Positions 37,183 to 56,955 of a DNA stretch of 64,000 nucleotides are shown piece by piece. The notes beneath the pieces were generated by a model, which saw only the letters and a program-made list of their open reading frames with translations, had not been told where the DNA came from and ran no database searches. Position numbers and translations under genes: made by a program. Within the stretch, counting starts at the first letter, position 1, and each line of letters begins with the position of its first letter. Source of the stretch: Marsupella aquatica (taxonomy: Eukaryota > Plantae > Marchantiophyta); assembly GCA_973895155.1 (NCBI GenBank), contig OZ316891.1, positions 24,675,899-24,739,898 of the forward strand, in the 5' to 3' direction.

Positions 37183-40100
37183 ATGCCCGTCACTCGTTCT
37201 CAAGCAGCTTACTTGAGGAGATTGACCAGCGAACGAGAAAGTGCAACCACAACAAGCTCCAACTCGTCGGGCTCGGAGGACTCGCAATCGTCCCGACGTA
37301 TGAACATACCCCCGGGATCTTTGGGGTCCGGTTCGACCGGCCCTGCTGCGGTTCCACCACCACCACCACCACCACCACCACCACCACCACCTATGGCAGC
37401 CGCTCCACCGGTGGCCTGCGCTGCTCAGGCGCCTCCACAAATATCGCAACGATCGCGATTTCATTATCGACCTTTCAAAGGGCGTCATGGGGATGATCCG
37501 GATGAATGGTTGGATGAGTTTGAAGCCACTGCTAAAGCTAATGGGGAAGACGCCATTAAGCTAACCGTCCTCCCGGGAGTAATGCGGGGAGAAGCTCGTC
37601 CATGGTACAACTCGTTACCACCCGGGACTACCTGGGCACAATTCCAAGCTGCATTGCTGCAGGAGTTTTGTGCCATTGGATCAGAACAACGTTCTCTATT
37701 AAAGATTGGCCAGCTTCGCATGGGAAAAAAAGAGTCCCTGCGGAAGTTCATTCAGAAGTTTCAGAAACTTGCAGCCAAGATCCGGCCCAGGCCAGGAGAC
37801 GCGCTCCAGCTTACATGGTTCCTTCATGGTTTGCCCACGAATATGCAATTCTGGGTACGCCAGAATAATCCAATTTCAATGCAGGCGGCCATAGCGTGCG
37901 CCGAAACTTACCGGGAGTCCACCTATAACTCTCGGCGGAGCCAGCGAGCACGCCGCAGGAAGGGTAAGTACGAAACCTTCAGTGACAGTGACTCCGAATC
38001 GGACGACGAGAGGAAGAAGAAACGGAAGAAGAAGAAGAAGAAACATCGTTCGACCTCGTCCAGCTCCGAGACGGAATCCAGTTCGGATTCAGCTTCAAGC
38101 ATCGGATCCTCTACCTCCAGTTCATCAGGAAGTGACTTGGAGAGCGAAAGCCGGAGCAAAAAGAAGAAGAGACGAGTGAAGAAGGAGGGGAAGATTAAAC
38201 CCCGGGCGCGAAGAACGATACCAGATCCAAAGGCTGCCGAAGCAGACAAGCTGAACAAAATCACGGATCGACTCAAAGCACTGTCAGTACATCTTGCGGA
38301 GAAGCCGGTGGAGAAGAAGAAGCCATCTGAGATTCGAGCCTATGCGTGGTGTTCAAAGTGCTTCCAATCCGGCCATGTGGTGCAGGAATGCCCAAGGTGG
38401 AAGAACCGAGTTCACCAAGTAGAGCTGGATGATGTTGACAACCCGGGCCCCGAATCGGAGTCCACGGAGTATTTCTTTGAGGACCCTCCTGATTTCGTGT
38501 ACCAGATTTCAACGGTTGGTCCGCGTAATTTAGCGGGTAGAACTGCGTACCCCTACCCAAGTAATGGCCGGAGTTTCCAGGTTATCAGTAACCCGAGCAT
38601 CCCTCCTAAGCCAGGGATTTGGCGGTCCCCGGTTTGTTACAACTGTGAAAAGCCAGGACACTTTGCGAGGGAATGCACCGAACCAAGACGTCAGGGAGAT
38701 GGCCGAGGCACCCCACTATGTCAAGTTTGCAAAACGGAGGCTCATTCCACGGCCAACTGTCCGTTGGTAATCGCTGCTCGAACGAGTGCGGCTAGACCGG
38801 CCCAGGCTGGACCAGTCACGAGTGATGCAGTCGTCCAAATGATTGCTGTAGAATGGCAAGATGACAACACCGAGTGGGTGAATCTGGTGGACGTGGCGGA
38901 ACACCCTAATCCATTGGATGAGGCCGAGTGCTACCGAGTGTCGACAAGGGCCGAACGGAAGGAAGAAAAGACGGAGGAGAAACGGAGGAAAAAGCAAGAT
39001 ACTACTCCGGTGCAGCCAGCGATAAATATACCCCCGGAAAAGGACGATGACTACCGACGGGACGACCCGAAGCTATTTTTCCCCCGCATCGAAGAATTGG
39101 TAAAGAAACAGCTGGAGGCTTACGAAGCTCGGGAATACCAGAAGGCAATCGATAAGGACATCAAAGCAGCCGAGACAGCCCGGCGTCAGGAGCAAGAAAA
39201 GCAAGATAAACAAGAGGAAGCCAAGCAGCAGCCAACGAAAGAAACAAAGGAGGACTATGATATTAAGGAGGACGTGAAGAGTTGCCCGGTTACAGCGACG
39301 GTGGGGCAACTGCTGCAGAACAACCCACAGTACAGACGACAACTGAGGGAGTTGCTCATGGGTCGCCGAAGGAGAAGACTACCCCGAGTTGGGAGTGCGG
39401 ACTGCAACATGATATGCGAGGACCTTGGAGCGCCGGACATCTCGATCGAAATTAATAACTGTACCATCAAGATGGTCCTTGTAGACAGAGGAGCGGGAGT
39501 CAACATCATGACTGAAGAAACGTCAGTCAAGTTAGGATACCTCACGTATCAACCCACGGCCCGAGCTATCAGATTAGCAAACGGGGCAAGGGTCCTCCCA
39601 TTAGGCACGCTCACACGAGTGCTCACTCTGGTGGGAGGGGTAGAGTTCTATCTCAACTTCTTAGTCATGAGGCCGGTTCGTCCCTCCTCTTATCCGGTTC
39701 TTCTGGGCAGGCTGTGGCTGTACGGTGGCCGTGTAGTCACGGATTGGGGAAAGAAGGAGCTACGGTTCGGGGAACCCACCGTACGGGTATCCTGGGCAAT
39801 GGACGATTATCAGGGAGAAACCCCACAAGGACTCGAGGAATATGATTCGGAGACCTCGGAGGAAGAGGAACTCAATATGATCGAACTCATCTCGTCCCTA
39901 TCCGAGGAAGATGTCTTCGGAGTTGAAGCAACCCGAGAAACACATCTCCTAAATTACCCGAGGGCTGCCATTGAGTCCACCCCAAGTACATCTACTGTCG
40001 GGGATGAGGAAACGCACGAACAACTCGTCGAGACGGAGGACACGGCTCCAGCCAAGCAGGGAGCCGTGGCTACTCCTTCCATTTCAGAGCCTTGTAACCA

Positions 40101-43100
40101 TGAACCAGCCCAACAACCGCCTGAGGCCGAAAACTCGAGACCGAGACATAAAAAGCGAGTCTCATGGGATCCGTCCATTCCGCAATTGGAGGAAGTAAAC
40201 CCCATCCCGAGACCAATCCCGGTCCCACCCATGTACGGAGGGGTTCGGTTAGCTGAGCTTGACGCGAGCCTGGACCCGAGTCTGCGAAACCAGGTTGAAG
40301 TCATCAGGAAGGAGCACTACCGGAAGTACACTATTGGGATGGACAAATCTTTTAACCTGGGCCACGCTTTGACGGGGAAGGCTGAAAAAGCCATCCAAGC
40401 TTTGCTCAAGGAATATGAAGATGTGTTTGCATGGAGTCATCATGATTTAACAGGCGTCTCCCCCGAGTTGGGAGAACACACAATCGATCTGAACCTAGGA
40501 GCCCATGCGGTACGACAGCGACAACGTCGCATGAATCCGAGGTACTCCATCTTAGTGAAGGAGGAAATTGATCGTCTCCTCGCCGCCGATATCATTTACC
40601 CGGTAATGGCCAGCGACTGGGTCTCTCCCATTGTCATTGTACCAAAGAAGGGAGGTACGGATGGAAAACCTAAGATTCGTATCTGTCAGGACTACCGTAA
40701 GCTGAATGACGCAACCCGAAAAGACCATTACCCATTACCATTCACGGATATGGTTCTAGATATGGTGGCCCGAAATGAAATCTATACATTTCTTGACGGG
40801 TATTCAGGTTATAACCAAATCTGGATTCGTCTCGCGGATCAGCTCAAAACAACGTTCACTACGGAGTGGGGAACGTTCGCATTTCGGAGGATGCCTTTTG
40901 GTCTGTGTAACGCCCCGGCTATGTTTCAGCGCCTTATGATGAATATCTTCCACGATTTCCTACGAGAATTTTTGGAGATATTTATCGATGACTTTGCCAT
41001 CTTCGGAACCGTTGCCATGCACCCCGAACACCTACGACGAATGTTGCAACGATGCCGAGATGTTAACCTCAAACTACATCCCGCCAAATGCTTCTTCGGG
41101 GTAGAGGAGGGGGTGTTACTCGGGCATCGTGTGTCCAAACGGGGCATTGAGGTGGACCAAGAGAAAGTTGCGGCCTGGATGGCGGTGGTGTTCCCCTTGG
41201 ATCAAAAAGCAGTACGATCCTTCTTGGGCTGCGTAGGGTATTACCGCCGGTTCATTAAAGACTTTGCTAAAATTGCGTTGCCCTTAACTGAGATGATGAA
41301 GAACGACGCAGCGGTCGAGGAAACACCCCGGAGACGGATTGCTTTTGAGGAACTCCGTAAACGACTCACCACCGCGCCTATCATGGTCACCCCAGACTGG
41401 AATAAGGAGTTCCACGTGTATGTCGATGTGTCAGGGTTCTGTATCGGATCCGTACTTAGTCAGCTAGATGAGGATGGACGTGATCACCCCATCTATTTCG
41501 CTAGCCGTCAACTATTTGCAGCCGAAAAGAATTATTCCCCCACTGATCGAGAAGCTTTGGGAATAATCTACTCGTGTAAAAAGTTCCGACACTATCTGCT
41601 AGGCTACAAGGTCATTTTCCACACGGATCATGATAGCCTGAAGTACATGGTCAACAAAGCGGATGTGACAGGACGGATAGCCCGGTGGGTGCTACTTCTC
41701 CAGGAATTTAATTACGAAGTTCAGGTTCGGCCAGGAAGGGTACACCTCAATGCCGATTTCTTTTCACGACTGGACGGCGTACCAGTCGATCAGCCAATTG
41801 ATGATATTTTTCCGGATGAGGAGTTGTTCCACGTAGGGGAAGGGACACCAACGTGGTACGGCTCAATAATCACCTTCCTTTTAACGGGCCGCATCCCTGA
41901 CGGCATCAATCAGGAGGCCGCCGCTGTGTTTTTACGAAAAGCCGGGCCTTACGTCATGATACAGGGTCACCTACATAAGGAAGGTATTAACGGAAAGTTA
42001 CGACGCTGCTTAGAGTATAAGGAGACACTTATCGTGATACGGGCCCTGCATGAAGAAGAAGCTGGAGGCCATTTCGCGGCAGTTACGACAACCCGAAAGA
42101 TTCTGGACTCGGGGTATTGGTGGCCTACGTTGCATCGGGATGTACAGCGCTTCATTAAGGGCTGTGACTTGTGTCAGCGAGCGGGGGCCCCGAGGCGGGC
42201 TCATCATCACCCGCTCACATCTGTGCTTCCATTGGCACCATTCAAAAAATGGGGAATTGATTATATCGGACCGTTCACTCCCGTTACCCGAAGGCGAAGG
42301 TGCAGGTACATCCTATTAGCTATTGATTACTCCACCAAATGGGTCGAAGCGCGGGCTACGGTAAAGGACGATGCCGCAACCAGTGCCAGATTCTTATACG
42401 AACAGATTTTCACCCGATTCGGACCGCCCTTAGAATTGGTAAGCGACCGTGGAACCCACTTCCTCAATGACACCGTAGCCCAGCTTACGGAGCGTTACCT
42501 AGTCAAGCACCGCAAGACTACCCCATATCATCCTAAAGCCAACGGGATGGCGGAGAGAGCAAATGGTATCATTGGGAAGATCCTCAACAAAACTGTAGCT
42601 GCGCACAAAACGGATTGGGATGATAAGTTGTACGCGGCGGTGTACTCGTATAATCTAGCTTACAAAACTACTACGAGTCATAGCCCGTACTTTCTGGTGT
42701 TCGGCCAACATTCGTTGGTGCCCGTCGAATTTGAAGTGCACACTCCACGGGTCAGCATTCGGGATCGCTTACCTGAATCTGAAAGTCTGTCAGACCGAGC
42801 TTATCAGATTGAAGCCTTGGAAGAAGCACGGCTACTGGCAGCTCGACACACCGTGAAGAAACAAGCAACTTCGAAGAAGCAGCACGACAAAGGACTACGG
42901 AGGGTCGACGTCGTGGCAGGCGATCTAGTCCTTCTGTACGATAGTAGGTACATGCAGTTTCCAGGGAAGCTGCATACCCGGTGGTTGGGGCCCTTCCTTG
43001 TCAATCAGATCTACCGAAACGGATCTTTGGAGCTTGCGACGTATGCCGGCGATTTACTCCCCACGCGAATCAGCTACGATCGTGTAAAAAAGTACCACCA

Positions 43101-43194
43101 TCAAGATGACGACGCCGATAGCGATGTTCGCGAGGACGCTTCACAATTAAGCAGGGAGCTATGTGACGCCGCCGGTACGGCGGTTAATGAGTGA
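37183..43194 (+). CDS. gag-pol: Gag-Pol polyprotein, single ORF of 2003 aa
   Basis: DPDEWLDEF; three CCHC knuckles; protease LVDRGAG; RT FIDDF; RH; integrase HHCC plus DDE; GPF motif; reads 33 nt into the 3' LTR. Confidence 0.96.
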   Translation: MPVTRSQAAYLRRLTSERESATTTSSNSSGSEDSQSSRRMNIPPGSLGSGSTGPAAVPPPPPPPPPPPPPMAAAPPVACAAQAPPQISQRSRFHYRPFKGRHGDDPDEWLDEFEATAKANGEDAIKLTVLPGVMRGEARPWYNSLPPGTTWAQFQAALLQEFCAIGSEQRSLLKIGQLRMGKKESLRKFIQKFQKLAAKIRPRPGDALQLTWFLHGLPTNMQFWVRQNNPISMQAAIACAETYRESTYNSRRSQRARRRKGKYETFSDSDSESDDERKKKRKKKKKKHRSTSSSSETESSSDSASSIGSSTSSSSGSDLESESRSKKKKRRVKKEGKIKPRARRTIPDPKAAEADKLNKITDRLKALSVHLAEKPVEKKKPSEIRAYAWCSKCFQSGHVVQECPRWKNRVHQVELDDVDNPGPESESTEYFFEDPPDFVYQISTVGPRNLAGRTAYPYPSNGRSFQVISNPSIPPKPGIWRSPVCYNCEKPGHFARECTEPRRQGDGRGTPLCQVCKTEAHSTANCPLVIAARTSAARPAQAGPVTSDAVVQMIAVEWQDDNTEWVNLVDVAEHPNPLDEAECYRVSTRAERKEEKTEEKRRKKQDTTPVQPAINIPPEKDDDYRRDDPKLFFPRIEELVKKQLEAYEAREYQKAIDKDIKAAETARRQEQEKQDKQEEAKQQPTKETKEDYDIKEDVKSCPVTATVGQLLQNNPQYRRQLRELLMGRRRRRLPRVGSADCNMICEDLGAPDISIEINNCTIKMVLVDRGAGVNIMTEETSVKLGYLTYQPTARAIRLANGARVLPLGTLTRVLTLVGGVEFYLNFLVMRPVRPSSYPVLLGRLWLYGGRVVTDWGKKELRFGEPTVRVSWAMDDYQGETPQGLEEYDSETSEEEELNMIELISSLSEEDVFGVEATRETHLLNYPRAAIESTPSTSTVGDEETHEQLVETEDTAPAKQGAVATPSISEPCNHEPAQQPPEAENSRPRHKKRVSWDPSIPQLEEVNPIPRPIPVPPMYGGVRLAELDASLDPSLRNQVEVIRKEHYRKYTIGMDKSFNLGHALTGKAEKAIQALLKEYEDVFAWSHHDLTGVSPELGEHTIDLNLGAHAVRQRQRRMNPRYSILVKEEIDRLLAADIIYPVMASDWVSPIVIVPKKGGTDGKPKIRICQDYRKLNDATRKDHYPLPFTDMVLDMVARNEIYTFLDGYSGYNQIWIRLADQLKTTFTTEWGTFAFRRMPFGLCNAPAMFQRLMMNIFHDFLREFLEIFIDDFAIFGTVAMHPEHLRRMLQRCRDVNLKLHPAKCFFGVEEGVLLGHRVSKRGIEVDQEKVAAWMAVVFPLDQKAVRSFLGCVGYYRRFIKDFAKIALPLTEMMKNDAAVEETPRRRIAFEELRKRLTTAPIMVTPDWNKEFHVYVDVSGFCIGSVLSQLDEDGRDHPIYFASRQLFAAEKNYSPTDREALGIIYSCKKFRHYLLGYKVIFHTDHDSLKYMVNKADVTGRIARWVLLLQEFNYEVQVRPGRVHLNADFFSRLDGVPVDQPIDDIFPDEELFHVGEGTPTWYGSIITFLLTGRIPDGINQEAAAVFLRKAGPYVMIQGHLHKEGINGKLRRCLEYKETLIVIRALHEEEAGGHFAAVTTTRKILDSGYWWPTLHRDVQRFIKGCDLCQRAGAPRRAHHHPLTSVLPLAPFKKWGIDYIGPFTPVTRRRRCRYILLAIDYSTKWVEARATVKDDAATSARFLYEQIFTRFGPPLELVSDRGTHFLNDTVAQLTERYLVKHRKTTPYHPKANGMAERANGIIGKILNKTVAAHKTDWDDKLYAAVYSYNLAYKTTTSHSPYFLVFGQHSLVPVEFEVHTPRVSIRDRLPESESLSDRAYQIEALEEARLLAARHTVKKQATSKKQHDKGLRRVDVVAGDLVLLYDSRYMQFPGKLHTRWLGPFLVNQIYRNGSLELATYAGDLLPTRISYDRVKKYHHQDDDADSDVREDASQLSRELCDAAGTAVNE

Positions 43195-46100
43195 TTCAGT
43201 CTAACTGCGCTCGGCACGCGCGTTAGGTGGGTCTTAGGCCGCTATTATTAGCATAACGACAGTATTTAGGTAATCATTAGGGGTAGGACATCATTAGGCA
43301 ATAAGGGGGACTTCAGGTTCGGGCTGGCGGCGGGTCGCTATTCGCACACCCGGGTTATGAGCATGGAGGGGCCCCTCCCTCGGGTCCGTATAACGAACTT
43401 AAGGAAGCGGCCACTGACACACGCTGACTCAGACCGGCGCAGTGGCCGGTACACCACAAGCGTGAGCGGTTCAACCTATGGGCGTCGAGGAGACGTCGGG
43501 GATCGACAAGCCCTCAAAGTATAAAAGGGGAGCCAACCCTTTGTAGTGCACCAGTCCATCAGTCCGCGCGCCAGCTTCCACCCCAGCTCTCTCGTTCTCT
43601 CTAGGTCGCCACTACTATCTCCTCTGAATGTCGCACGCGATCCTCTCCAGCTCGGCCATTCAATTCTGGACGCAGTTCCTATCTACCGGAAGGCACTTGG
43701 CTGATTCATTGAAACACGCCAACCCGCGCCGATACGAGATCGAACGCGAATACGAGAGAGCCATCCGCCTAGCAGGACGACACCACTACGTCCTTAACTC
43801 AGAGCGAGCTTTACCGACCAGCTGAGGTATCTGGGTACTTCTTTGACGGAGACAAATATATCGGGTTCTGGGAAGCATTGCTTCGGCTTCCGGACGAGGT
43901 CTTCAATATCCCGGGTACAATCGACCTGCAGCGACATCACTTCGACCACATCCCTGCCCAGGTTCGGGCAGTCATTAACGGCGAGTCCAATACCAACCGT
44001 TCGACAAGGGCGTCCGCACTCGCTTCGGAGAACTTCTACCAGCACCTACAGAGCTTCATGGGAACTCGGCCATCAACCAACATGACCAACTCAGCCGGAC
44101 CCGTACCCGTACCCGTACCCGTGCCCATGCAACCTCAGCTTCAGCTTCAGCCTCAGCCGCAGCCTAGCCAAACCCCACCACCTATCACCCAGCCAGCACA
44201 GGTACGCTCCGTCATCAACGCTGTGGATCTTAGCGATGACGACGAGGCTACCCCACCCTTGACCAGGCGGCCCAGAGGAACAAGCGCTCGGGGGGCCGAC
44301 ACTATATCGTCCCCACCCCCTGCTCTGACCCCAGGAGCGGCCCCAGCAGACAACATGGTGACCGTGGCCGCCCCGGGCCCGTTACCAACCGCAGTGGCAC
44401 TCCCCAGGCCCGATCGGGAGGATGGGGAAGTATCACCTTCCCCGAGTCAGTCACGGGGAAAGAAGAGGAAGGAATCCGCCAGTGCATCCGGGTTACCGTT
44501 GGCCACGGTAGCCGTAGCCAAGGTAACGATGCATCGCATGGGGGAAAACGTTCACAGCAACATCCTCCATCCCAAGCATGCGGTGTACCTGAAGACTCAG
44601 GGATTTGAGCACCTCGCCTCTCTCCCCTGGAACACTTGCAGGTACTACGGGGAGGACATGACAGAATTCGTCAAGAATTATGACGACGTACGTCAACAGA
44701 CTCGACTGCGGGGAAGGAATATGTCCCTCACAGAAGAACGGCTCAAGATGATCTTCGGGTTACCCGAAGGTGACCATCGAGTCGAATCACGGGCTCCCGG
44801 GGGCAAGGGGGCCAAGTACCAATCTTCAAGTTTTCCCTCAGAGGGATCAGTAGACAACGGGTTCGTGATGAGGACCTGCCTCATGCCCGAGATAGCTGAG
44901 CGGCTGGAGTTCCAGAGGTACGCTCTCCACATGATGGAACCCCGGGGGGAGATCTCCGCCGCCCAGGTCATCCAGGTCGAGAACTATCGACCTAGGAAGT
45001 GGGCGTCGTACTTCGCTAAGAAATTCCATGAAGAGATGGAGCGGCGAAGGAAGACGCTGTACATTGGCGGGAAGGCGTATTTCGCTAGCCACATCGAAAT
45101 CATTCTTGAGTGGTACGCCCGGTTTGATCGACGAACCCTTCCCCGCATCAACGTTACAAAGCTGGTCCCAGCTAGGTGGGTTTTTCCGGCATTGGAGAGA
45201 CGGCCCCAACCCGAGGCCCGAAGTCCAGTGGACACGCCAGCTTCACCCACCCCACCTCCACAAATAGCTGTAATCGTAACCGAGGAGGCGCCGGAGGGGT
45301 CGGTCGTCGCAACCGTTGATGCGACCCAACTAGCCGGGCTAAGTACAGAAGTTGGTACGGCAGAGGTCTTACCCGAACCCGGGTCTCCCAAGGACCCGCC
45401 GGTGGCAATTTCGGAGAACCGGACATCGCTGCAGGAGGATACTCCGGCCCCTTCCAACGTTATGTCCCCAGGGCTGGACGTCACTGCCGCGGCCCCTGCG
45501 CGTGTTGATGTCTGCCCGTGCCCAAATCCGGACAGGCACAACTTGGACCACCCGGAACTCTTCGTACAGGGTACGTTTCTGAACGGGCTTCTGGGAGATT
45601 TCTCTCATCAAATTGCCCGGGATACCGGGGAGTTCATGGCTCGGAAGGTAGCCTGTTTCTTCAATCAGGAGTTGGTTGCCGCCGTAAAGGCAGGGCGGGC
45701 CCAGTCGGAGGCCCTTCAGAGGATAGAGCGGTACCGGGTGGAGTCCGTGTACCTAAAGAACGAAGTGGCGGCTCAAGAGGCTGAGCTTCTGTAACTACGA
45801 CCCAAGGTTGCAGCTGCCGATGAGTTGTTAGCAAAGGCGTACGCTCTTACCGCCCTAGCCGAACAGGCCAAAGCTGGGAACGAGGCCGAGATTACACGAC
45901 TCCAGAACCAGATTGACAGTTTGAAGAAACAAGCTGTCACCTGGCAGAAAGACCTGGAGGAGGCCGAGGAGCGAGCCCAGCGGGACGCGACGGAGATAGC
46001 CACGCTGCAGGCCGAGATGGCGCGGCTCCAAACCGAGGCCGAGAAGCAGGACCAGCTGGCGAGTAAACTGGCGAGCGACGCCCAGCAGCTGGAGGAGGCA

Positions 46101-47156
46101 TGTCAGGAGGCAGCAGAGGAGACGGACGCGGCGAGGCGAGAGAACGAATCTCTGCTGGACCAGGTCCAGCTCCTCAAAGCGGACAATGACAGGCTTCGAA
46201 GGCAGCGGGATGGCTGTTCCCATTCGGGCGGCTCTGGCAAGCGTGCCAGGCATTAGCGGCGGAGTAGGAATAGATTAGGATTAGGATTGGCTTAGTCAGG
46301 CTCTTGGGACAGGCACCTGCCTTAGGTACGGCAGTGCTGCCCTGCTGTCCAGCCTGCGTAGATTAGGATCTTCTAATAAGACACAGCCGTTTTCCGGCCT
46401 GACTGTCAGCTTAGTTAGGACCTTGGTCAGCGAATCTTCGGCGGGAGGACACCCCGTTCCTCGGCTCTTAGTATTTAGTGCACCCCTCGGTAGAGGCAGG
46501 GGGGGTTTTTTAGTTTCAGAGTCGGACATCCGCGGGACATGCGGGGAGTCCCGACCTCTGGGAATGACAGAGTACCAAGGGGAGGGGGTAGGACTAAGCT
46601 TGCCGGGCGAGTGCGGAGCCGGGCTCCGTTGTAGTGTGCACCCTTGGCCTTGAACCTGTGCATTCCAGGGTTGTCGTGTCAACTAAGTGTACGCATATGT
46701 TCCCTTTGTAGTAAAAATCCTTTCCCATCATTTTTCCTTCGTGTAAATCGAGATTGTATGCATGTGTGCGCATATGTGTGTGGGTTTCTCGTATATGGGT
46801 GGCAGCGCCGGGCCGAACGCACTACCCGAGACGTGCACAGGGTGCAGCCTGCGGGTAAGTGGTTGCGAGCACGGGTTGAGGACCTGTATCATCGAATCCG
46901 GATCGAAGGCGGACAGCACGAAGGCTTAGAAGCCCTTAAGCCGGGGTCGATCCTGCTATCGACTAGGGTACGTTCCGGCGGCGGAACACAAACCATACCT
47001 AGGAGGTGTCCGTATTTAGCAGTATGCGCACTTAGCGCTAGTTTACGAGAATGAGGTGCATTACGTGCTTCCCTTCCTGCCCGAACCCTCAGATTTACGA
47101 GGGATGTGCCCGTCTAAGCTGAAGTCTGAGTTAAGGCCGAAGCCTACGACGTGACA
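43162..47156 (+). repeat. Family B 3' LTR, 3995 bp
   Basis: Copy of the 5' LTR with a 14-nt deletion near 43799 and scattered transitions. Confidence 0.96.
43628..46256 (+). pseudogene. Family B LTR ORF, 3' copy (14-nt deletion frameshift and one TAA)
   Basis: ORFs 43628-43825, 43878-45794 and 45825-46256; TAA 45792 is CAA in the 5' LTR. Confidence 0.88.
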
Positions 47157-50100
47157 ACCATTCCCGCCAACAACCCCTGAATGGCGGCGAGAACCACCAT
47201 GGGGCCCACTACCAACCCCCCCACCAGACCCGGGCCTGTGAGAACCACTATGGGCCCCAGTACTACCCCGCCCACCAGCACCTGCAGATCGATCAAAACC
47301 GCCCCGACGCCCACTACCACTTGTCCCAACACCACCTCCAGCAGCTGTAGCACCCCCACTACCTCCTGCTGCTCTACGGCCACCTACATCACCATCAGTC
47401 CTCCGTCTAGAATGACTACCTCGAGTCCCTCGGGATGTGCCGCCAATCAAGCAAACAGGGGTGGGTGCCACACTCCCCTCCTCAGCCTCAGACTCTGAAT
47501 CTGAGGCCCCCGAACCCTCCTCGACTGAGTCCAAACCCTCCGACTCCTCATTTGACTCCTACATACATGTAAGCAACCATGAACCCAAGTGTTAGTGTTG
47601 AAAATGACCTACAAGGGAGTGATTATAACCATGTTGCATCAAAGGTTAGAAATATGGTTTTCAATTGTGCATATACTTACCGACCCCAACTCGTCCTGCA
47701 TGTGAAGTTTCAGAGCCCGCGTTCCAAATTTCTTAGCCAACTCTCTCTCAGGTGGCAAGATTGGGCGTCCATGCTCTCGCTCCTGCACCATACTCAAGAT
47801 AATAATTAACCCCCCTCCCCGGCAAATGAGAATAAAATTGAAACCCCCCATTACTTGAAATACATTATTTTAAAAGTTAATCCCTACCAAATCCCCCACA
47901 TTACTTAATGAATAATAATCCCTACCTAGCCCCACACATTACTTAGAAAAATTCCCTAACACCCCCACATCCCTTTCAACTCATGGGTATCACTACCCAC
48001 TCTACCTATATAAAATACTCCCTTATTATCGTGGCCTAACTATCGCAAAAAGCAACGACAACCTAAGCCCGGCACTCCTTAAAAAAAACAAACCCCCCGG
48101 CGTGGCCTAAAACAGTCAAATATTCAAAATTTTGAATTTTTCCGATGCTTCCCTAATCGGACCCCTCCACCCTAAACCCCAAAACCTAAGGTCCAATGCA
48201 GGGTCCGATTCTCAGGTAATTGGACCATAATCGGAAGCCTTGCGTCCAAAACCCATAAGAGAGAGTCCCACTCCATTTCCAACTCTTCAGCAATCGGAAT
48301 AGAATCGGAAACAGAAAAAAATAAGGACACATCAAAACTTGCGATACAGGCTCGATAACAAACGCACAGGGATAAGAGGGGAGGTCTGGGAGGACTTATG
48401 CAGGCATAGCCAAGGTTGTGCCTGAGGTGATCAGGGAGAGGGAGGACCCAATTTCAAGGTGAAAATTCAGCAAGGAGGCGAGCAAGGAGGAGGGGAGCAG
48501 AGGACTTACAAACTCTGCTTTGAGACGATGCGCTCCACCCTGCCCCATTCGGTGAGTAACTGCAGGTCTCTTCTCCACCCTCTCAATTGCATTTTGAATG
48601 TAAAGTGGAGGGTCTCCAAGCAGTGCTAATTTGGCCTCCCATTCCATTAAGTTTTGCTGCAGGAGGGGGATGTCAACAGTCTGTCCTGAAAGGACCCTCT
48701 TCTCTGCCTCATCGAGCTCAGCCTGCCAGTGACGTCTCGCTTGCCAAGCACGAACCTGTAGCTCAGCATCAATCCAAGCAGACCAGGCATCAGCTGGTAT
48801 CTCATCCGGGGGATCTCTCTGCCTGATCACCTCTGCCTCCTCCTTACAATCTGCCAGGTACTTCCTCATCTTTTCTCTCACATTATTACGTCTATCTGCA
48901 AGTGAACGTGAGATCTTCTTATTCAGCCATTGATCATCCAGGAAGCAGCCATTACAGAATCGCCTTTTCACTTGCTCCCTTGCTTGAAATTTCTCCTCTT
49001 CTTTCTTCTTCCCCCAGTAGTCTAAGGGGCTGAAATTTGCCCTCAACACCTGCCCTAGCTGACTTCTGAACAAATTGTAGCTCTTTGTCATCGGAGCTCC
49101 TCCCTTATTAATGAACAATTTTGGCCGTTTGGCCCTTTCCTCTGCTCGTAGCCTCTCTTCCTCAATCCTTGCCCTCTCTGCAGCTCGAGCCTCCTTTCTA
49201 AGCCTCTTCTCTCTTTCTTGTGGTGAGAGGGCGTCCACTGGCCTGCCTTTCCTCTCCTCCTTCCTCTTTCTTTTTTTCTCCTTTCCTTTCTCTAGCCTCT
49301 CCATGAAAGCCTTCTCTGCTTCACTTATGGCAGATTGCCTGGATTCGTCAATCAGGCCCTGGGTCAATTGAGCTGCTATGGCCGCAGCTTCAGCAGACAG
49401 GCCTGCTTGCCTCTTGAAAATCTCTGCCATAATGTCTGAGATCTGCTGTGACGGCCCTGCTCCATCTCCACCCACCCTGGCTGCTCCGTCTCCTCCCCCC
49501 CAGCTGTGCCATTCCCCTCCATAGCCTCGACCTCCAATGCGTGCTCCTCCACTTTGTGTTCACTCAGCAGCTCCTCCCAAGTTGCATCCGAAACCAAGCC
49601 CGATACAAAGACATTCATACTTTAGTTGGGAAAAGTACCAAACCCTATTGTGCCCTCCATCCAACTTTTTAAGAATCGGAACATCCGATACTTGAACTAT
49701 CGAAAACGGGATCGGAAATAGCGATGCTTAAAGTATCGGACCCCTCTTCCAATATGATCGGACTTAGCTTGTCCATTATTTTTTATGCCTTTAAGGATGG
49801 ATTTATAATAAGTTAGTCAATGGGGGGGGGGGGGCTGGGGATGTGGTAAGGAAATGTAAGTTTAGTTGATGTGAAAACTTGCATTGTAATTGTAGGCCTG
49901 GTTGAGTAGCCGGATTTTGTTTGGGCGGTGGGGTTCTTGAATAAAAGCCGGTTATAGGTGCGGTAACGTCCCCCTTACAACAACATACTTTTGGGGTTGA
50001 ACGGTATGATCATTGACCCACTCACATTAAAAGTTTTGACAAATTTGTCCACCTTGTATGTGGATTTAATTTTGGGGGCCAAACAAAGTTAACCTCATGT

Positions 50101-50579
50101 GCGTGTATTGTGCAGTATTTTTTTGCGGAGGGTTGGGTCATTCTCTTTGTTTGTATTTTTGTAGGTCCATTTTTGCAATGCATTATGCATCGCGATAGGC
50201 CGTGCATCCGAAAGGTATGATATACTCCCTTTATCATTTGGAGGTGAGCACTTTAAGTATATATTTGGCTAAAGTTTTTTCATTGATGGCCACAATATAT
50301 AGTGGATATGATTCTATGGGGACATATGTATAGATAAATTCTGATGGTATTCCTTTAATTGTGCAGACATTTCGGATATTGTCTTAGCATATATTCTAAG
50401 GCCAAGATCCTAGTAGGCATTGTTCAGTGCGGATATCATTTAGGTAAGATGCACAGTCATTATTTTTAATTATTCGCTTAGTGTAAACTAGGTTCCAATC
50501 TTGACATATTGTATTTAGGGTACTTAATATGAGTGGGAAAGATTTTTGACATGTGATTAATTTTCACATTGATGGGCAG

Positions 50580-51897
50580 ATGTCAAATTCTGGGAGTTCC
50601 GAGTCAGATTCTGACTCGGACTTGTCATCTTCTGAGGGGGACATTCCTCCCCCCCCCCCCCCTCGGAGGCCGCATCCTCCTCCTCCTCCTCTAGGCCCCA
50701 TTCCATGTTGGTGTGTGCGATGTAAGGGAATGGTGGTTCGTCAAGCTTGGGAGTGTATTGAGCATATTGAGAATTATGGGCAACACCAACCTGATTTACC
50801 AGGACATTTAGCTCACCAGGTATGCACCCCATACTCTCATCCCACACATTTCAATGAAGGAAACATAATTTGCCACTTACAATCATGGCCACTATCATCA
50901 TATATTTATTAATTTTGGATTTTTTTTGAATGAATAGGTGCCCCGTAGGCCCCCTCCTCCATTGATCTCTAAAGAGCTATGGCTAGACACATTCTTGGCT
51001 AGTGCAAGACGGATGCTTGCATCAACATCTACACCCCCTCCTCCTGCCCCGTGCCCCAATGGTGAGGGCGGGAGTGTACCTGTAGCAAGGGTGGAGGACA
51101 TTGAGCAAGGTGACCTGGAGGTACCTCCATCTAGGGTTTTACGCACCGGCCCATGCTCCCATAGGCATAGGAGACATTATGAACCATTGGGCACTCGTGA
51201 GTCTCAAGACCCAAACTTGGTAGGTCCGCCTATGATGAAGCCAGGTGAGGGTTATGTGGTAGTGGAGGGTAGGTTGGGATTGTCATATCTCACTGGAAAG
51301 GCGTTGCCTCTTGTGAAGGACTTCTTGTCTGAGATATTCAAAATCCCTCAAGGCATACCCACTAATGCCCCTATAGAGATATGGGGCCGTCATTGGATAG
51401 TGCAGTCATCTTCCCTTGGTGTTGATGTAGGATTTGGGTTATTTGCTTTGGAGGACATTGTGGTCCATCCAAAGCCATGGCGAAGAGGTTATGATGGGGA
51501 ACACTTATTTCCTTATATTGGCCCTATATACACTGCCAAGAATTGGAACATTATTTTACGGCAACAACCATCATGGGGAGTGTATGCATTGCAAATGGAT
51601 TCCGATCCGGATGAGGTCCTCAAGAGGCCTTGGCATTGTAGGATGATTGATGGTGATCCTGTGCGATGTGATAACATCGCTGGGTATATCAATAGTACCA
51701 AAGGGAGAGGACGAGGACTTCAACCAAATGTAGAGTGGGTTCAGATTTTTGGGGCACCGCCACCACCTTACTATGTGAAGCATATGGATGACCATGTTAT
51801 GACTGTAGCCATTAGGACTATTAGGGCTGGTGAGGAACTCTTTTGTGACTATGATTGGAACGCGCCTAAGATGGCCATACGGTGTCGTCCTTCATAG
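50580..51897 (+). CDS. SET-domain protein inside the CACTA (exon 50580-50819 plus exon 50938-51897)
   Basis: SET motifs VGFGLFALEDI, FPYIG, IDG...NIAGYINS...PNVE, AIRTIRAGEELFCDY; phase-0 intron CAG|GTATGC...AATAG|GTG. Confidence 0.82.
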
Positions 51898-52069
51898 CAC
51901 ATACAAACATGTGTATATGTTCACTTTTATAAAAATATTACTTGAGTCATTCTCTAATTGGTTTCAAGAGCTATGGAGTCTTTTGACTCATTCATATATG
52001 GATGTCTCAATTGTTGGTTGAGAGACCTGGACTTATATCATTCTCATTGTTTTCTTTTGTGTATGATAG

Positions 52070-55000
52070 AATGCATTTGTTCAGCCAGATATTGAGGTAT
52101 TATCACGAGCTGTGCGACAACATCTCCTTCAGGCCATGGATGGTAGGCAAGGGGGTCAACCTTTTGAGGATATGGACATTCCACATGAACTACCTAATGC
52201 TACCCAAGAAAGAGTGGATGAGGACCGGGCTATGGATGAGTTGATGCACCAATTCATGGATGCAGATGAGGGTGATCCCCGGGGTGATCATGACCCAGGT
52301 GACTGGGAGGACATTGACTTACCTCCTCCTCATAGGCATACTCCTTCACGGAATCGACACTTGCACCAGTGGGAGGAGGCTCAGGAGCATGCACGGACTC
52401 GTCTTTTTGAGGGGTCTAGATTATCTCGTCTTTCAGCAATCATGTTATTACTGAACTTGCAGCAAAGACATGGAGCAAGCAACTTGCTTCTTGATGATAT
52501 TTTCAGGACATTGCATGATCGTATGTTACCAGAGGGGAATAACTTGCCAGCATCATGGAAAGAGGCAAAGAAAGTGTTGAAGTCCATAGGCCTCAAGTAT
52601 GAGGTCATACATGCTTGTGTGAATGATTGTGTTTTGTTCAGGAAGGAGCACTCAAATGCTCTTACATGTCCTGTGTGCAACGTGCCAAGATATTGTGAGG
52701 ATATGTTGACAGGAAGAGTACCTCAAAAGGTTATGAGGTACTTTCCCCTTATTCCTCGTTTGCGTCACCAGTTTCGATGTGCAGAGTTGGCTAAGTATAT
52801 GGTATGGCATTCCCAACACCGTTCAGACACTACTCAGGATCCAACCATGCGCATGATGGTTGACTCTCCTGCAAACAGATTTGTGGAAGAGCGTTGGGGT
52901 GAGTTCAAGACTGACCCTCGTCATGTTCGCCTTGGTTTGGCATCAGACGGCATTAGCCCATTTGCACTGGCCAGCAAGGCCAAACCATACTCTGTATGGC
53001 CAGTAGTCCTCACTAACTACAACATCCCACCATGGATGGCCATGAAGAAGGGTCATTTGCTCCTATCTATGATTATTCCTGGCCCTAAGCAAGTGAAGAA
53101 GATTGATGTATACTTGCAACCGTTGATTGAGGAGCTACAGAAACTTTGGGGGGGAGTGGATTGATATGATGGTCGAGTGCGTACAGGGGGCTTACCCCGT
53201 GAGTTTCAGCTCAAAGCCATTCTTATGTGGACCATGCATGATCGTCCAGGTACCCAACTCTTTATAAATTAAGTATGGCTTGTGCAGCTACCCATATATA
53301 TATATATCGTTCTGTTTATTTTTTTTCCCTTTGGTTTGGTTTCAAAACTTAATGGGTTTTAATTTGTGACCATTGTTTGTGAAGGGTTTGGATATATTTC
53401 TGGCTTGCAAACTTCTGGATATCGTGCTTGCCCAACTTGTGGACCAGACTTGGAGGGAGTGGCACGCCCAAAGTCTACCACCCTGCGGAAGATAGTTTAC
53501 ATTGGTCACACAAAGTATCTTCCTGAGGGGCATGACTGGAGGTATGATCCATTTTTGTATGACACGGATGAGGGCCAGCCAGACACAAGACCTCAACCTT
53601 TACCGAAGGACCCAATATATTGGAAGGAGGTATGGGAGAGGGTGACTGATCCAGATGACCCATTACCCTTGGCTAGATGTGGCATGACCTGTTTGTCTGC
53701 ATTGGCACAACTTCCATATTGGGAACACATGCCGATAAATCATCTATTGGACCCTATGCATATTGAGGGGAATGTTGGGAGGTCATTGATCCGCCATCTA
53801 TATGGAGAGAAAAACAACAATTGGAGGGAGAGTTGTGAGGAGATGGGGATGCATGACCTTCATGGTTTTTGGCCATCTATGGACCCTGACCCTCCCCTTA
53901 CTATCCATCCCCCATGGGTTTTCACAAGGAGTGAGCGAATAGAGTTTCGCAAGCGGATAGGGTCAATGCAGTTTCCTACAGGGTATGGTGCCAATCTTTG
54001 CAAGGCATTTGGTGGAGATGACTCTCCAAAATGGCCAGCTTTCTTGAAGACCCACGATTATCATCGTCTATTGCAGCACGTTATTCCAGTTGCTATTATT
54101 GGATTGGGCAGCGAGGATCTTTGGGATGCACTTTGGTCATTGGGTAGATTGTTGAGATGGGTTTGTCAAAAGGAGGTCAACGAGGGAGAGATTGCTGCCA
54201 TGGAGGTATTTGGAGTGGAGGTTGTGTGCAAGTTGGAGCGAGCACTCCCTCCTTCCTTCTTTGATGGTCAAGTTCATTTTCTTGTACATCTAGTGCGTGA
54301 AGTAGCCATTGCAGGCCCAGTACATTGTCGTTGGATGTATTGGGTAGAGCGATTCATGGGAGTCATGAAATCATATGTATCAAACCGTGCTAGGGTGGAA
54401 GGTAGCATTGCCGAACGTCACCTTGGAGCAGAGAGTATGTTCTATTGTACGAACATTGTGGCTACACTTGATCCAAATGCTCCAAGGGGTTGGATAGATG
54501 AGTCAGCACGAGAGGCAGATTATGAAGAGGATAGACTCACTGGAGCAAAGGGAGAACGACTACTAGGCTCTGCTGAACGTCTGCAACTCACCACATTCAT
54601 GTTGTATAACTCACCAGAGATTGCAGGGGAGTGGACTGCATTTTATGAGGAGGAGAAGAGTAATAGTCGTCGGCCACGCCTCTTCCCCAAGTTTCTCCCA
54701 TATATGAAGGAGAAGTTGACAGAGATTGATGCCTTGTTGGGTCAGGGTGAGAGTGTTTTGCACTTTCCAAAGGTCACCAATGACATTCGCACCCTTGTTC
54801 ATGGTCCATTACTCATGGTCACGACTCGAACAGCCATGTGGTCAAAGGGGAGGCATTTTCAAATCCAACATCTTGATATGAAGAGAGCAGCAACACAAGA
54901 TTGTGGGGTGATGGGGTGGTTCACCCAAGAGTCACAAAGTAGCACTTCTGACCGGAATCCAATACGTTCAACTGTGGCCCACTATGGGAAGATAGAGGAG

Positions 55001-55339
55001 ATTCTTATCGTAAATTATCATGCCCATACAACCTTGGAGGAGGTGGTGTTCAAGTGCAAATGGTTTCGGATGAATCTTGTTGGCCATAATCGGACCTGTG
55101 AAGAAGATGCATGTGGGTTCACACGATTGAAGACCAGTGCAACTAGTGTCATTAGTTCCAATTGGAGGACCTCAGATCCATTTGCATTTCCCCATCATTT
55201 GGAGCAATCTTTCTATCTTCCTTATCCGAATGACCTAGAGTGGTCCATTGTTATGCCTTACATCCCTTGCTCACGATCCATTGTTCAAGACAAGCCAAGT
55301 GTAGTTGTAGTAGAGGATTTGGACCCCTCATTACAATAG
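52070..55339 (+). pseudogene. tnpD: CACTA TnpD/Tnp2-type transposase with one premature stop (53162-53164) and an intron (53250-53384)
   Basis: IHACVNDCVLF...CPVC, RYFPLIPRL, RLGLASDG, SVWPVVLTNYNIPPW, IDVYLQPLIEEL, LDPMHIEGNV, LKTHDYH, GPVHCRWMYWVERFM, FKCKWF; the intron joins DRP-G-FGYISG in frame. Confidence 0.93.
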
Positions 55340-55524
55340 ATGCAACCTAGGTAAAACCCCTATATGTTTTATCTTCATGGATATCATATACATTTTGTCA
55401 TGTCATTTCACACATGCCCAAAGATTCATTGGTTGGATATAATTTTGGATACAACTGTATATAGTCCCTTGACACAATCCAAATTGCAATCCCTAAGTAA
55501 TATATGCATTTGAGTCACGTCCAT

Positions 55525-56015
55525 TTATTCCCGATACCATTTCCCATGCTTAAAACAACGGAAGCCCATCGGAACACCTCCTTGTTCAAATCTTGACCTC
55601 GAACCACATCTATCCGATATAAACCCTTTCGGACTCCATTTCCGATTCTTGTAGCATCGGACTTATTTGTGATACACACTACTTCGGAAAACATTTCCGA
55701 TACCCAACCTATCGGAAGCACTAAGCAATACATTTTCGATCGCAATATTTCCGTAATTTACTCAATCGGACATCAAATGCGATACTTCAGGGATCGGAAA
55801 TTTAGTAACAATTTTTAGAAGAGGGGTCCGATAGTCAAGACATCGGATATGTTCCGATATTAGGAGTATCGCAAATTATGTCCGATGTTTTGGAAATCGG
55901 ATACTGTGTTTCCGAAGCTGTGGGGATCGCAAGTTCTGATATTTTTGTGAACGAAAGTTTGCGTAACTCTGGCTATCGGACGCCTGTTTCATGTTTCAGC
56001 GGGAGCATCGGAAAA
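55525..56015. repeat. CACTA right subterminal repeats
   Basis: Many TCCGAT/ATCGGA motifs in both orientations. Confidence 0.85.
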
Positions 56016-56955
56016 TGAGCAAAAATGTACTAGTGCTTGAGCAGAAGGAGGCCGAGTTAGGGAAATCCTATCAAGGGATTATTGCGCTGCAGCAGGAGCT
56101 TGCGTCCCTGACGGCCAGCTTCAAGGCCGACCTAAGGAAGAAGGACAATATGCTCGATCAGACTTACGCCAAGATGAACTAGATGGAGTCTGTCATCATT
56201 GCAGAGCTCGACAAGGAGCTAAGAGCAACCCGGGAGGAGAGGGCTACCTTGAAGAAAGAACTGGAGGAGGCGCGCAAGGACCTGGACGAGGTGCAGGAGG
56301 AGTTGGAGGAAAGCACGCGGAGGCTGGAGAATTTACAACGACGAGCCGACAACCAAACGGAGCGGCTGAAAAAACAAGCCGCAGTATTTAAGTGCTTGTC
56401 TTCATCAGGCCCAACTCCAATTGGGGCAACTAAGTTACCAGGAGTGGTACTGGCCGAAGAACAAGACGCGCCACCTGCACCAGTGCCGGAAGTAAGTGGG
56501 AAGGGGAAGGGACCAGCTGCCAAACCAGAAAAGAAGAAGAAGCGGAAACCTTCAGGGTCAAGGAGTAATACGACTCCACAGGCCGTGGTGACCAAGGAGG
56601 TAGACCTAGCACCGACCCCAGACAGAGTCACGGCAAAGGATCCAACTACCCTAGAAGGAGGGGAGGCTGAAGCCGTTGCTGATGCCGAGGCCGGTGCCAA
56701 GGCCAAAGCCAAAGGTGGACCCAGTCAGGCCGATGGAGAGTTGACTAAGTCCGGGGCAGGTAATCTGTCAGAGAACGAACCTACGGCAGTGGCTGAGGAG
56801 GAAGCGTTGGGGGCGTCTACTGAGGAATAGACACCGCTGCCATGACGGTGGTGGAGGGCCGCTCCTTTCAAGGAGGGCGGACGTGGAGGGAGGAGGCATG
56901 AGTGGGCAGGGCGGGCTCAGATCTCTAAGTTTAGGATTAGGATCAGGACGAGGAG

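What the first reader, a model, noticed from the sequence alone, without database searches (positions are those of the whole stretch)
50580..55339. CACTA transposon carrying a SET-domain exon that can be spliced alternatively with the transposase
Seen: exon 1 (CWCVRC zinc-like motif) ends at a phase-0 donor (50819|GT). Two downstream AG acceptors are both in frame: 50937, leading to an intact SET exon with its own stop, and 52069, leading to the TnpD transposase. Known: En/Spm makes TnpA and TnpD by alternative splicing; SET domains are lysine methyltransferases; SETMAR is a SET-mariner fusion; VANDAL elements encode anti-silencing VANC proteins. Inference: this element may encode its own chromatin writer or decoy. 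The terminal EELxxDY tyrosine is present, but the usual NH(S) motif reads NST, so catalytic activity is uncertain.
Basis: partly seen in the sequence, partly recalled or inferred. Interest (0 to 1): 0.88.

Follow-up and report, generated by a model that had tools for sequence, protein, structure and literature searches.

The report
Jumping gene with shared-exon SET enzyme
A cut-and-paste (CACTA) transposon, likely of a liverwort, carries a conserved SET-domain exon between the first two coding exons of its transposase; that exon is predicted to be spliced to the transposase's own zinc-binding first exon to give a likely protein-lysine methyltransferase, which would let the element mark its own chromatin.

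Summary
Observation confirmed and widened. A complete CACTA element spans 31852-56035 (12-bp TIRs, CTT duplication; 10.07 kb without a nested LTR element). Exon 1 is a shortened form of the usual N-terminal zinc domain of TnpD. Splicing past the SET exon would rebuild a normal 1124-codon transposase; splicing into it gives a 399-aa zinc-SET protein. The layout and splice phases recur in a metagenome family about 40% identical in SET, and Calypogeia and Riccia gene models hold the exon1-SET join. SET dN/dS is about 0.33; the fold is confidently SET, tied between subfamilies. The missing His is a family trait (Ser in 74 of 76), and the active enzyme LegAS4 lacks it too. No RNA run was listed, so splicing, activity and substrate are untested. 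SET-carrying transposons are known (HarbingerS, oomycete MuDR, Helitrons, red-algal Plavaka); a land-plant CACTA with a shared exon was not found in 10 paper searches. This scan had already noted the same design on peat-moss DNA (4 notes).

The parts
31849..31851 (.). Left copy of 3-bp target-site duplication CTT
   Evidence: a paralogous empty site at about 10250-10295 has one CTT
31852..31863 (+). 5' terminal inverted repeat CACTAGTACATT
31852..32400 (.). 5' subterminal region, 14 TCCGAT/ATCGGA copies (25.5 per kb; 0.13-0.35 per kb in the flanks, nested element and coding region)
32623..33045 (-). Distal part of predicted exon 2 (Gly/Ser-rich) of the minus-strand gene, ending in its stop
   Evidence: predicted, not tested in relatives
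33051..47156 (+). Nested LTR retrotransposon, a later insertion and not part of the family: LTRs about 4.0 kb, 98.9% identical, TSD ACCAT
47157..47558 (-). Proximal part of predicted exon 2 of the minus-strand gene (phase-0 acceptor at 47559)
48101..48400 (.). Internal cluster of 6 TCCGAT/ATCGGA repeats, inside the predicted intron of the minus-strand gene
48510..49430 (-). Exon 1 (307 codons from first ATG) of a divergently oriented accessory gene, possibly TnpA-like; phase-0 donor TTT|GTAAGT also in the metagenome family
   Evidence: no Pfam hit; TnpA similarity weak
49551..49800 (.). Internal cluster of 5 TCCGAT/ATCGGA repeats between the two divergent genes, likely the promoter region
   Evidence: promoter role inferred
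50165..50443 (+). Two candidate non-coding 5' exons (50165-50214, 50367-50443)
   Evidence: splice-like contexts only
50580..50819 (+). Shared coding exon 1: Ser/acidic and Pro-rich stretch, then C-x-C-x2-C-x13-H-x4-G (from 50706), a shortened homolog of the TnpD N-terminal domain PF13963
50820..50937 (+). 118-nt intron to the SET exon (GT..AG, 32% GC)
   Evidence: same phase in 9 of 10 loci shown
50938..51897 (+). SET exon, 319 codons plus stop; folded core residues 100-307; G165/G167, Y193, Y216, N252, S253, E300, Y305 (numbered in this exon)
51898..52069 (+). 172-nt T-rich gap: predicted 3' end of the SET message and acceptor of the long intron
   Evidence: polyadenylation inferred
52070..53249 (+). 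TnpD exon 2 (PF02992; catalytic D at 52946 and 53240); premature TGA at 53162-53164 in this copy
53250..53384 (+). 135-nt phase-1 intron
   Evidence: gap at the same place in L003, L006, L013, L016, L020
53385..55339 (+). TnpD exon 3 (rest of PF02992, PF13960, PF13952; CxxC at 53429, HxxxH at 54275, catalytic E at 54347)
55501..56035 (.). 3' subterminal region (15 TCCGAT/ATCGGA copies) and 3' TIR 56024-56035
56036..56038 (.). Right copy of target-site duplication CTT

Best explanation
This is a now-broken copy of an old CACTA family that holds a SET-domain exon between the first two coding exons of its transposase and is predicted to make two proteins from one gene by a choice of 3' splice site: the transposase, or a zinc-domain-SET protein that likely transfers methyl groups to lysines, most likely on histones at the element's own copies. 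Shown here: element ends, exon layout, homology of exon 1 to the TnpD zinc domain, SET fold by prediction, conservation and purifying selection. Inferred, with my odds: both splices occur (0.85); the SET message ends in the 172-nt gap after its stop (0.6); the protein is catalytically active (0.65); its substrate is a histone tail (0.6 if active); it reaches the element through the shared zinc domain, the transposase, or the minus-strand protein bound to the TCCGAT repeats (0.5); the net effect favours expression or mobility of the element (0.5). The lysine target cannot be named.
For: Linkage: TnpD follows SET in 11 of 12 metagenome loci with 500 nt or more downstream; the minus-strand gene precedes it in 8 of 9 with 1800 nt or more upstream. 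Riccia sorocarpa models P0083, P0107, P0120 hold SET-family and TnpD sequence together. Exon1-to-SET: phase-0 donor and in-frame acceptor in 9 of 10 loci shown; the Calypogeia fissa model P0001 joins at the same junction; the 25 residues before the first Met of the SET exon are 13-18 of 25 identical in 4 relatives, 3 of which have Leu at that Met position. Exon1-to-TnpD: exon 1 matches a profile of 88 seed-plant-type TnpD N-terminal domains (window 12.4 bits; 10 of 10 peptides 8.1-15.1; best of 2000 shuffles 9.5; hhalign probability 90%, same C-to-H spacing); TnpD acceptor in phase 0 in 8 of 11 loci, the other 3 decayed; residues before the first Met of exon 2 resemble those of L002, L009 and P0186. 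Selection: SET core dN/dS 0.32 (0.20-0.49) and 0.34 (0.22-0.54) between two subfamilies. Enzyme: model pLDDT 90.9; Z 10.9-11.9 to Set1, SETD8, SET7/9, PRC2, LegAS4; 4 of 6 LegAS4 cofactor/active-site residues named (Y135, Y159, N181, Y220) align to Y193, Y216, N252, Y305, kept in 53 of 73 (plus 19 F), 73 of 76, 68 of 76 and 63 of 66 rows. SET and TnpD trees group the same lineages. Splice partitioning of Spm functions is documented in Arabidopsis and maize.
Against: No spliced junction among the 15 joints shown (14 more not shown); the bridging contigs keep the introns, as DNA would. Gene models in Calypogeia and Riccia may be ab initio (Riccia annotation merged cDNA and ab initio evidence). 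No named model joins exon 1 cleanly to TnpD: P0107 does so only with half of the SET exon between, and P0186 starts at exon 2. Exon 1 misses Pfam PF13963 in the window and reaches only E=0.031 in P0081; my profile was seeded on a CPCxxC pattern. Whole exon 1 dN/dS is 0.77 (0.43-1.42) and its zinc part 0.30 (0.09-1.01), neither clearly under 1. The canonical His and Arg of the R-F-x-N-H motif (motif recalled) are Ser and Gly; there is no post-SET Cys cluster and no clear equivalent of LegAS4 Y231; several members stop within 1-3 residues of Y-x-W. No reader domain or known DNA-binding domain is attached. Nearly all of the 25 loci are one family, so independent lineages number about five. TnpD clade support is 88, quick tree only.
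Confidence: 0.5

Rival explanations
1. Same two splice products, but the SET protein is catalytically dead or weak and works as a reader or decoy: it binds a histone tail or a host silencing enzyme and shields the element.
For: His-to-Ser and Arg-to-Gly in the cofactor motif, no post-SET lid; 19 of 73 rows have Phe for Y193; P0106 lacks the terminal Tyr; SET dN (0.55) exceeds TnpD dN (0.29-0.36) between window and metagenome family.
Against: Y305 in 63 of 66, N252 in 68 of 76, G165/G167 in 66 of 70 and 69 of 71; LegAS4 is active without the His.
Confidence: 0.2
2. The SET protein is an active methyltransferase whose substrate is not a histone but the element's own transposase or accessory protein, or a host factor, and it tunes transposition.
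For: Fold ties equally with SET7/9 and SETD8, which have non-histone substrates (recalled); the core is not strongly acidic (24 D+E, 22 K+R); the shared exon could bring it to the transposase.
Against: No direct support; other transposon-borne SET genes are described as histone methyltransferases, though by annotation.
Confidence: 0.15
3. No alternative splicing: exon 1 serves only the SET protein, and TnpD is made from its own internal start, as two head-to-tail genes.
For: Some Arabidopsis En/Spm families use separate head-to-tail genes; P0186 starts at exon 2; exon 2 has a Met at residue 23.
Against: TnpD would lose a domain found on most seed-plant TnpDs (88 of 118 listed carry the CPCxxC pattern); the TnpD acceptor is phase 0 in two families; only 172 nt separate SET stop and exon 2; coding similarity lies upstream of the Met.
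Confidence: 0.1
4. A captured host-gene fragment drifting neutrally inside a transposon intron.
For: CACTA elements do capture gene fragments (reference title seen); within the main metagenome family pN 0.041 against pS 0.056 over 45 pairs, as after insertion.
Against: dN/dS 0.32-0.34 with intervals under 1 between subfamilies; open frame and position kept at 40% identity; 143 cluster representatives at E up to 0.001; no close host SET class found.
Confidence: 0.02

Closest known systems
Maize En/Spm and Arabidopsis EN/SPM3, EN/SPM7 (TnpD and TnpA by alternative splicing; PMC13547354 passages; bioRxiv 10.64898/2026.08.24.746577 abstract, section 6, passages)
   Same: CACTA ends, 3-bp TSD, subterminal repeats, TnpD domain order, one gene predicted to give a transposase and an accessory protein.
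   Different: The alternative product is a SET-domain protein, not a helix-turn-helix TnpA; its exon lies upstream, between TnpD exons 1 and 2; the possible TnpA-like gene is separate and divergent. Both papers place TnpA-like proteins in flowering plants only.
Red-algal Plavaka elements, accessory gene PAG2 (bioRxiv 10.1101/2025.02.11.637652, passages)
   Same: EnSpm/CACTA superfamily element carrying a PF00856 SET domain; function untested there too.
   Different: Plavaka lineage in red algae; PAG2 is a separate gene with SET fused to a DNA methylase domain; no shared exon described in the passages read.
HarbingerS and Phytophthora MuDR families, SET-carrying Helitrons (named in PMC12730594 and the Plavaka preprint; the Repbase Reports themselves not seen)
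   Same: A DNA transposon keeps a SET gene as cargo.
   Different: Other superfamilies and hosts; homology of their SET domains to this family was not tested.
VANDAL/VANC anti-silencing system (mentioned in passages)
   Same: Element-encoded accessory protein proposed to act on the chromatin of its own family; internal short repeat clusters.
   Different: MuDR superfamily; no SET fold; anti-silencing shown by experiment there and only inferred here.
SETMAR/Metnase (recalled; structure 3bo5 appears at Z 8.8, rmsd 2.9, 136 aligned)
   Same: SET and transposase sequence at one locus.
   Different: SETMAR is a domesticated host fusion protein; here SET has its own stop, the products would be mutually exclusive, and the unit is a multi-copy element.
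Legionella LegAS4/RomA (PDB 5czy, 8sr6; bioRxiv 10.64898/2026.05.29.728679 passages)
   Same: Best sequence match among solved structures (E=2e-4); lacks the motif His; four active-site residues align.
   Different: 28-30% identity only and tied with eukaryotic SETs by fold; no ankyrin domain here; not evidence of origin or of H3K14 specificity.

Membership tests
CACTA (En/Spm) transposon | Terminal inverted repeats beginning CACTA/CACTG | tested here: met
   12-bp CACTAGTACATT at 31852 and 56035
CACTA (En/Spm) transposon | 3-bp target-site duplication | tested here: met
   CTT on both sides; one CTT at the paralogous empty site
CACTA (En/Spm) transposon | Subterminal repeats at both ends | tested here: met
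   TCCGAT/ATCGGA 25.5 and 28 per kb at the ends against 0.13-0.35 per kb in flanks and coding region
CACTA (En/Spm) transposon | TnpD with DDE triad, C(2)C and H(3-4)H motifs (definition from PMC12730594 passages) | tested here: met
   PF02992 and PF13960 above cut-off, PF13952 E=8.9e-6 under cut-off; motifs located by pattern. This copy has a premature stop
CACTA (En/Spm) transposon | TnpA-like second protein | tested here: inconclusive
   Minus-strand gene: no Pfam hit, no Atlas hit; hhalign to 3 TnpA regions score 23.1 against best 17.5 of 40 shuffles but probability 2.6%
CACTA (En/Spm) transposon | Present mobility | not testable with these tools
   No whole genome held; hundreds of related contigs per run point to many copies but give no copy number
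SET domain (PF00856) | Profile match above curated cut-off | tested here: met
   32.7 bits against 22.4
SET domain (PF00856) | SET fold | tested here: met
   pLDDT 90.9; Z 11.9, rmsd 2.6, 125 aligned to Set1; 40 chains at Z 8 or more, the listed top ones SET/PR domains
SET domain (PF00856) | GxG cofactor motif, motif II Tyr, terminal GEEL-x-x-x-Y Tyr (motif names recalled) | tested here: met
   G165, G167, Y193, E300, Y305 present and conserved; aligned to LegAS4
SET domain (PF00856) | N-H-S motif (recalled) | tested here: not met
   N kept in 68 of 76, His in 0 of 76, Ser in 74 of 76. LegAS4 has N-F-S, so this lowers 'canonical SET', not 'works as a methyltransferase'
SET domain (PF00856) | Lysine methyltransferase activity | not testable with these tools
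   Needs an assay
Host SET classes E(z), Trx, Ash, Su(var) (PMC5725981 passages) | Class-specific partner domains (pre-SET, AWS, post-SET, SRA, PHD) | tested here: not met
   Only PF00856 found in the SET exon at E up to 1
Host SET classes E(z), Trx, Ash, Su(var) (PMC5725981 passages) | Closest structural or phylogenetic affinity to one class | tested here: inconclusive
   Top Z values tied within 1; no tree with host SETs was built, as no host SET sequences were held
PF13963 transposase-associated domain (exon 1) | Pfam gathering score | tested here: not met
   No hit in window exon; 14.9 bits against 27.7 in P0081. The N-terminal helix of the domain is missing
PF13963 transposase-associated domain (exon 1) | C-x-C-x2-C-x13-H-x4-G core at the TnpD N-terminus | tested here: met
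   Own profile and hhalign
SETMAR-type SET-transposase fusion | SET and transposase in one polypeptide | tested here: not met
   Stop at 51895-51897; all 6 donor-like GTs in the SET exon at 7 of 9 consensus or better are phase 1, out of frame with the TnpD acceptor; no longer homolog among 7972 candidates (weak). Three Riccia models fuse partial SET and TnpD sequence, likely annotation of broken copies

The most novel reading that the evidence does not exclude
An ancient CACTA lineage of seed-free land plants encodes its own active histone methyltransferase, built by lending it the transposase's zinc-domain exon, so that one splice-site choice switches the element between making the enzyme that moves it and the enzyme that rewrites the chromatin of its copies; the SET family forms its own His-less class outside the known plant classes.
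Probability: 0.3. Interest if true: 0.85.

Novelty: new variant of a known kind. Interest (0 to 1): 0.62.

Why it matters
Plant transposons are known to counter silencing with DNA-binding proteins (TnpA, VANC) that call on host enzymes. A transposon that brings its own histone-modifying enzyme has not been shown to work in any plant, as far as my 10 searches reach. In bryophytes PRC2 (H3K27me3) represses transposons (bioRxiv 10.1101/2022.10.24.513474, abstract), so an element-borne methyltransferase would be a plausible countermeasure, and it is testable in Marchantia. The SET core is about 210 residues with no partner domains, easy to express, and would be a new enzyme class. The shared exon also gives a handle on the function of the TnpD N-terminal zinc domain.

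Tried and rejected
No whole genome is held, so copy number and intact copies could not be counted. RNA search: no RNA holder listed; this is no evidence on expression. The four runs laid are contigs of unrecorded kind from 2 studies, and the best may be the window's own sample. Search for longer fused forms with A1: none among 7972 candidates (weak). Viral contigs: 0 of 103 pattern matches confirmed; prokaryote genomes: 0 of 25; these searches reach only close relatives. Viral structure library: SET proteins at 13-22% identity, none standing out. First fold on 16 sequences with the disordered N-terminus was poor (pLDDT 57.6) and was not used. Minus-strand gene: no Atlas hit; own profile found nothing significant among 313 stored proteins. 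Complex prediction of SET core with the minus-strand protein was not available, so binding is untested. The sigma-70 promoter scan does not apply to a plant and was at chance level. The 31 exon variants taken table 3 (40 rows shown, 496 more not shown) are a biased list and were not used for dN/dS. The exon-1 dN/dS used a wrong frame for L001 and was redone. Paper searches; none of the listed titles or the passages read describes a SET exon in a land-plant CACTA. Listings were partial (20 of 34, 15 of 16, 20 of 26, 20 of 27, 30 of 68); Repbase entries and Reports, subscription papers and preprint supplements were not seen and could hold such a description. A PR-domain-like reading of the motif (recalled) got no paper and no better fold score.
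Full report
The observation. Exon 1 runs 50580-50819 and ends at CAG|GTATGC in phase 0. The acceptor at 50937 opens a 319-codon frame with its own stop at 51895-51897, which matches Pfam SET above the curated cut-off (E=1e-7). The acceptor at 52069 opens the TnpD frame. Of 73 AG dinucleotides in that stretch only 3 combine a T-rich upstream with a long open frame: these two and one 15 nt into TnpD exon 2. Joined by coordinates, the products are 399 aa with no internal stop and 1124 codons with one stop at codon 445. Contigs of 4 of 4 public runs read TGC there at full depth, and CTT for CGT next to the second catalytic Asp, so the window holds a decayed copy of a family whose common form is open there.

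The element. CACTAGTACATT starts at 31852 and its inverse ends at 56035, with CTT on both sides. The target is a coiled-coil gene of an LTR element that has other copies in the window, one showing a single CTT at the empty site. A 14.1-kb LTR retrotransposon with 98.9% identical LTRs and an ACCAT duplication lies inside, at 33051-47156; without it the element is 10,073 nt. TCCGAT repeats are dense at both ends and in two internal clusters around exon 1 of a third gene on the minus strand. That gene is conserved in place and orientation in 8 of 9 informative loci at 31-33% identity and may be TnpA-like, but the test is inconclusive. The nearest named SET relative is from the leafy liverwort Calypogeia fissa (61% identity; clade of 4 rows at 100/100) and the nearest named TnpD from Riccia sorocarpa, so a liverwort or other bryophyte is inferred.

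A family, not an accident. The SET exon found 15 relatives, and their profile 143 cluster representatives at E up to 0.001, 45 at 1e-30. Named members come from Calypogeia, Riccia and, more distantly, the fern Adiantum nelumboides (30 clusters looked up). The ESM Atlas holds two streptophyte clusters of 50 and 126 members with TM 0.7 to P0001. A metagenome scan confirmed 25 loci among 222 pattern matches, at 33-47% identity. TnpD follows SET in 11 of 12 loci with enough downstream DNA; in the twelfth the SET is cut off by foreign sequence. Nearly all of these loci are one family plus a second subfamily (L001), so independent lineages number about five: window, two metagenome subfamilies, two Riccia groups. 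In trees, window and metagenome family group together for SET (within 23 rows at 100/98; 68 of 80 rows used, short fragments dropped) and for TnpD (95; 40 of 41 rows, quick tree), with the two Riccia groups outside in both; the 9 SET-linked or Riccia TnpDs form one side of a branch at support 88. This fits one old capture, but the sample is small. Between subfamilies the SET core has dN/dS 0.32 (95% bootstrap 0.20-0.49) and 0.34 (0.22-0.54), an upper bound because decay after insertion is included.

Splicing. No RNA run was listed and no spliced joint is among the 15 shown, so the evidence is comparative. For exon 1 to SET: donor and acceptor are in phase 0 in 9 of 10 loci shown (the tenth has a frameshift); the Calypogeia model joins at the same junction; Riccia P0047 and P0056 and the Logan protein P0052 carry the exon-1 motif in front of SET; and the 25 residues before the first Met of the SET exon are conserved while that Met is not. 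For exon 1 to TnpD: exon 1 is a shortened form of the domain that starts seed-plant TnpDs. A profile of 88 such domains scores all 10 exon-1 peptides at 8.1-15.1 bits, 9 of them above the best of 2000 shuffles, with the same C-x-C-x2-C-x13-H-x4-G spacing. Pfam's own PF13963 model misses the window exon and gives only E=0.031 in one relative. The TnpD acceptor is in phase 0 in 8 of 11 loci, with 3 decayed. The simplest history is that a SET coding exon entered the first intron of TnpD and kept its own stop. Against: no named model shows a clean exon1-TnpD join, and the gene models may be ab initio.

The SET protein. With 76 sequences the core folds at pLDDT 90.9 and matches SET domains at Z up to 11.9, with Set1, SETD8, SET7/9, PRC2, NSD2 and LegAS4 tied, so no target lysine can be read off. 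The His of the usual N-H-S motif is Ser in 74 of 76 rows and His in none: a fixed trait, not decay. LegAS4, the best sequence match in the PDB (E=2e-4), reads Y-I-N-F-S there and methylates H3K14. Counting along the printed alignment, its Y135, Y159, N181 and Y220, four of six residues changed in the catalytically defective allele of that paper, fall on Y193, Y216, N252 and Y305; S158 falls on a variable column and Y231 has no clear match. There is no post-SET Cys cluster, and several members end just after Y-x-W. A conserved stretch of about 60 residues before the GxG motif is specific to this family and might supply the lid; that is a guess. I put catalytic activity at about 0.65.

How it likely works. 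One transcript from the region between the divergent genes (inferred from layout and the repeat cluster at 49551-49800) gives either the zinc-SET protein or the transposase. The zinc-SET protein would reach element copies through the domain it shares with TnpD or through the minus-strand protein, and would methylate a histone lysine there. Whether that opens or dampens the element is unknown; opening is my lean, by analogy with TnpA and VANC. Rivals are a catalytically dead decoy, a non-histone substrate, two separate genes, and neutral capture (rejected).

What is known. Alternative splicing of En/Spm into TnpD and TnpA is documented (PMC13547354, passages; bioRxiv 10.64898/2026.08.24.746577, abstract, section 6 and passages, which mention no SET domain, bryophyte or moss in the main text by word search). 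SET genes on transposons are known from HarbingerS and oomycete MuDR (PMC12730594, passages), and from Helitrons and red-algal Plavaka elements of the EnSpm superfamily (bioRxiv 10.1101/2025.02.11.637652, passages). Also seen as passages only: PMC10714607, PMC4158355, PMC11982613, PMC5725981, PMC11735767, bioRxiv 10.64898/2026.05.29.728679; as abstract only: bioRxiv 10.1101/2022.10.24.513474. No supplements were read. Ten searches showed no description of a SET exon in a land-plant CACTA; Repbase was not searchable. This scan's earlier notes report the same design on peat-moss DNA, seen after I had reached my reading; they are unchecked AI notes and not independent support.

Verdict. Real, conserved and under selection; a new variant of a known kind. 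The distinctive part is the shared zinc-domain exon in a canonical land-plant CACTA and a His-less SET family of its own. Splicing, activity and target remain untested. Interest 0.62.

Noticed in passing
window 33051-47156: Nested LTR retrotransposon with unusually long LTRs (about 4.0 kb, 98.9% identical) that themselves hold long open frames (for example 43773-45794, 673 aa, no Pfam hit); related LTR copies lie at about 13319-15881 on the other strand.
   Followed up: partly
window 7430-12066, 18046-22706, 28902-31851 with 56036-56955, 56956-60640, 62993-64000: At least five copies, in both orientations, of the coiled-coil-encoding LTR-like repeat into which the CACTA inserted, 82-98% identical.
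   Followed up: partly
window 48101-48400 and 49551-49800: The subterminal TCCGAT repeat also forms two internal clusters (20 per kb) on either side of exon 1 of the minus-strand gene; the metagenome family shows only a few such sites.
   Followed up: partly
window 50165-50214 and 50367-50443: Two candidate non-coding 5' exons; divergent contigs stay similar up to about 50446-50451 and resume near exon 1, which fits a conserved upstream exon.
   Followed up: no
proteins P0096, P0106 (Calypogeia fissa), P0164 (Adiantum nelumboides): Distant members of the same SET family: P0096 has Cys/His repeats in front (DUF5763 at E=0.09), P0106 lacks the terminal Tyr. Whether they sit in transposons or are domesticated was not tested.
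   Followed up: partly
L016 2186-3110; L017 from about 545: L016 has about 850 extra bases in the TnpD intron; in L017 the SET exon is cut off by sequence that looks like a reverse-strand retroelement (by eye).
   Followed up: no
L003, L016, L020 near TnpD exon-3 residue 205: The metagenome family appears to have one more TnpD intron than the window's family (split hits).
   Followed up: no
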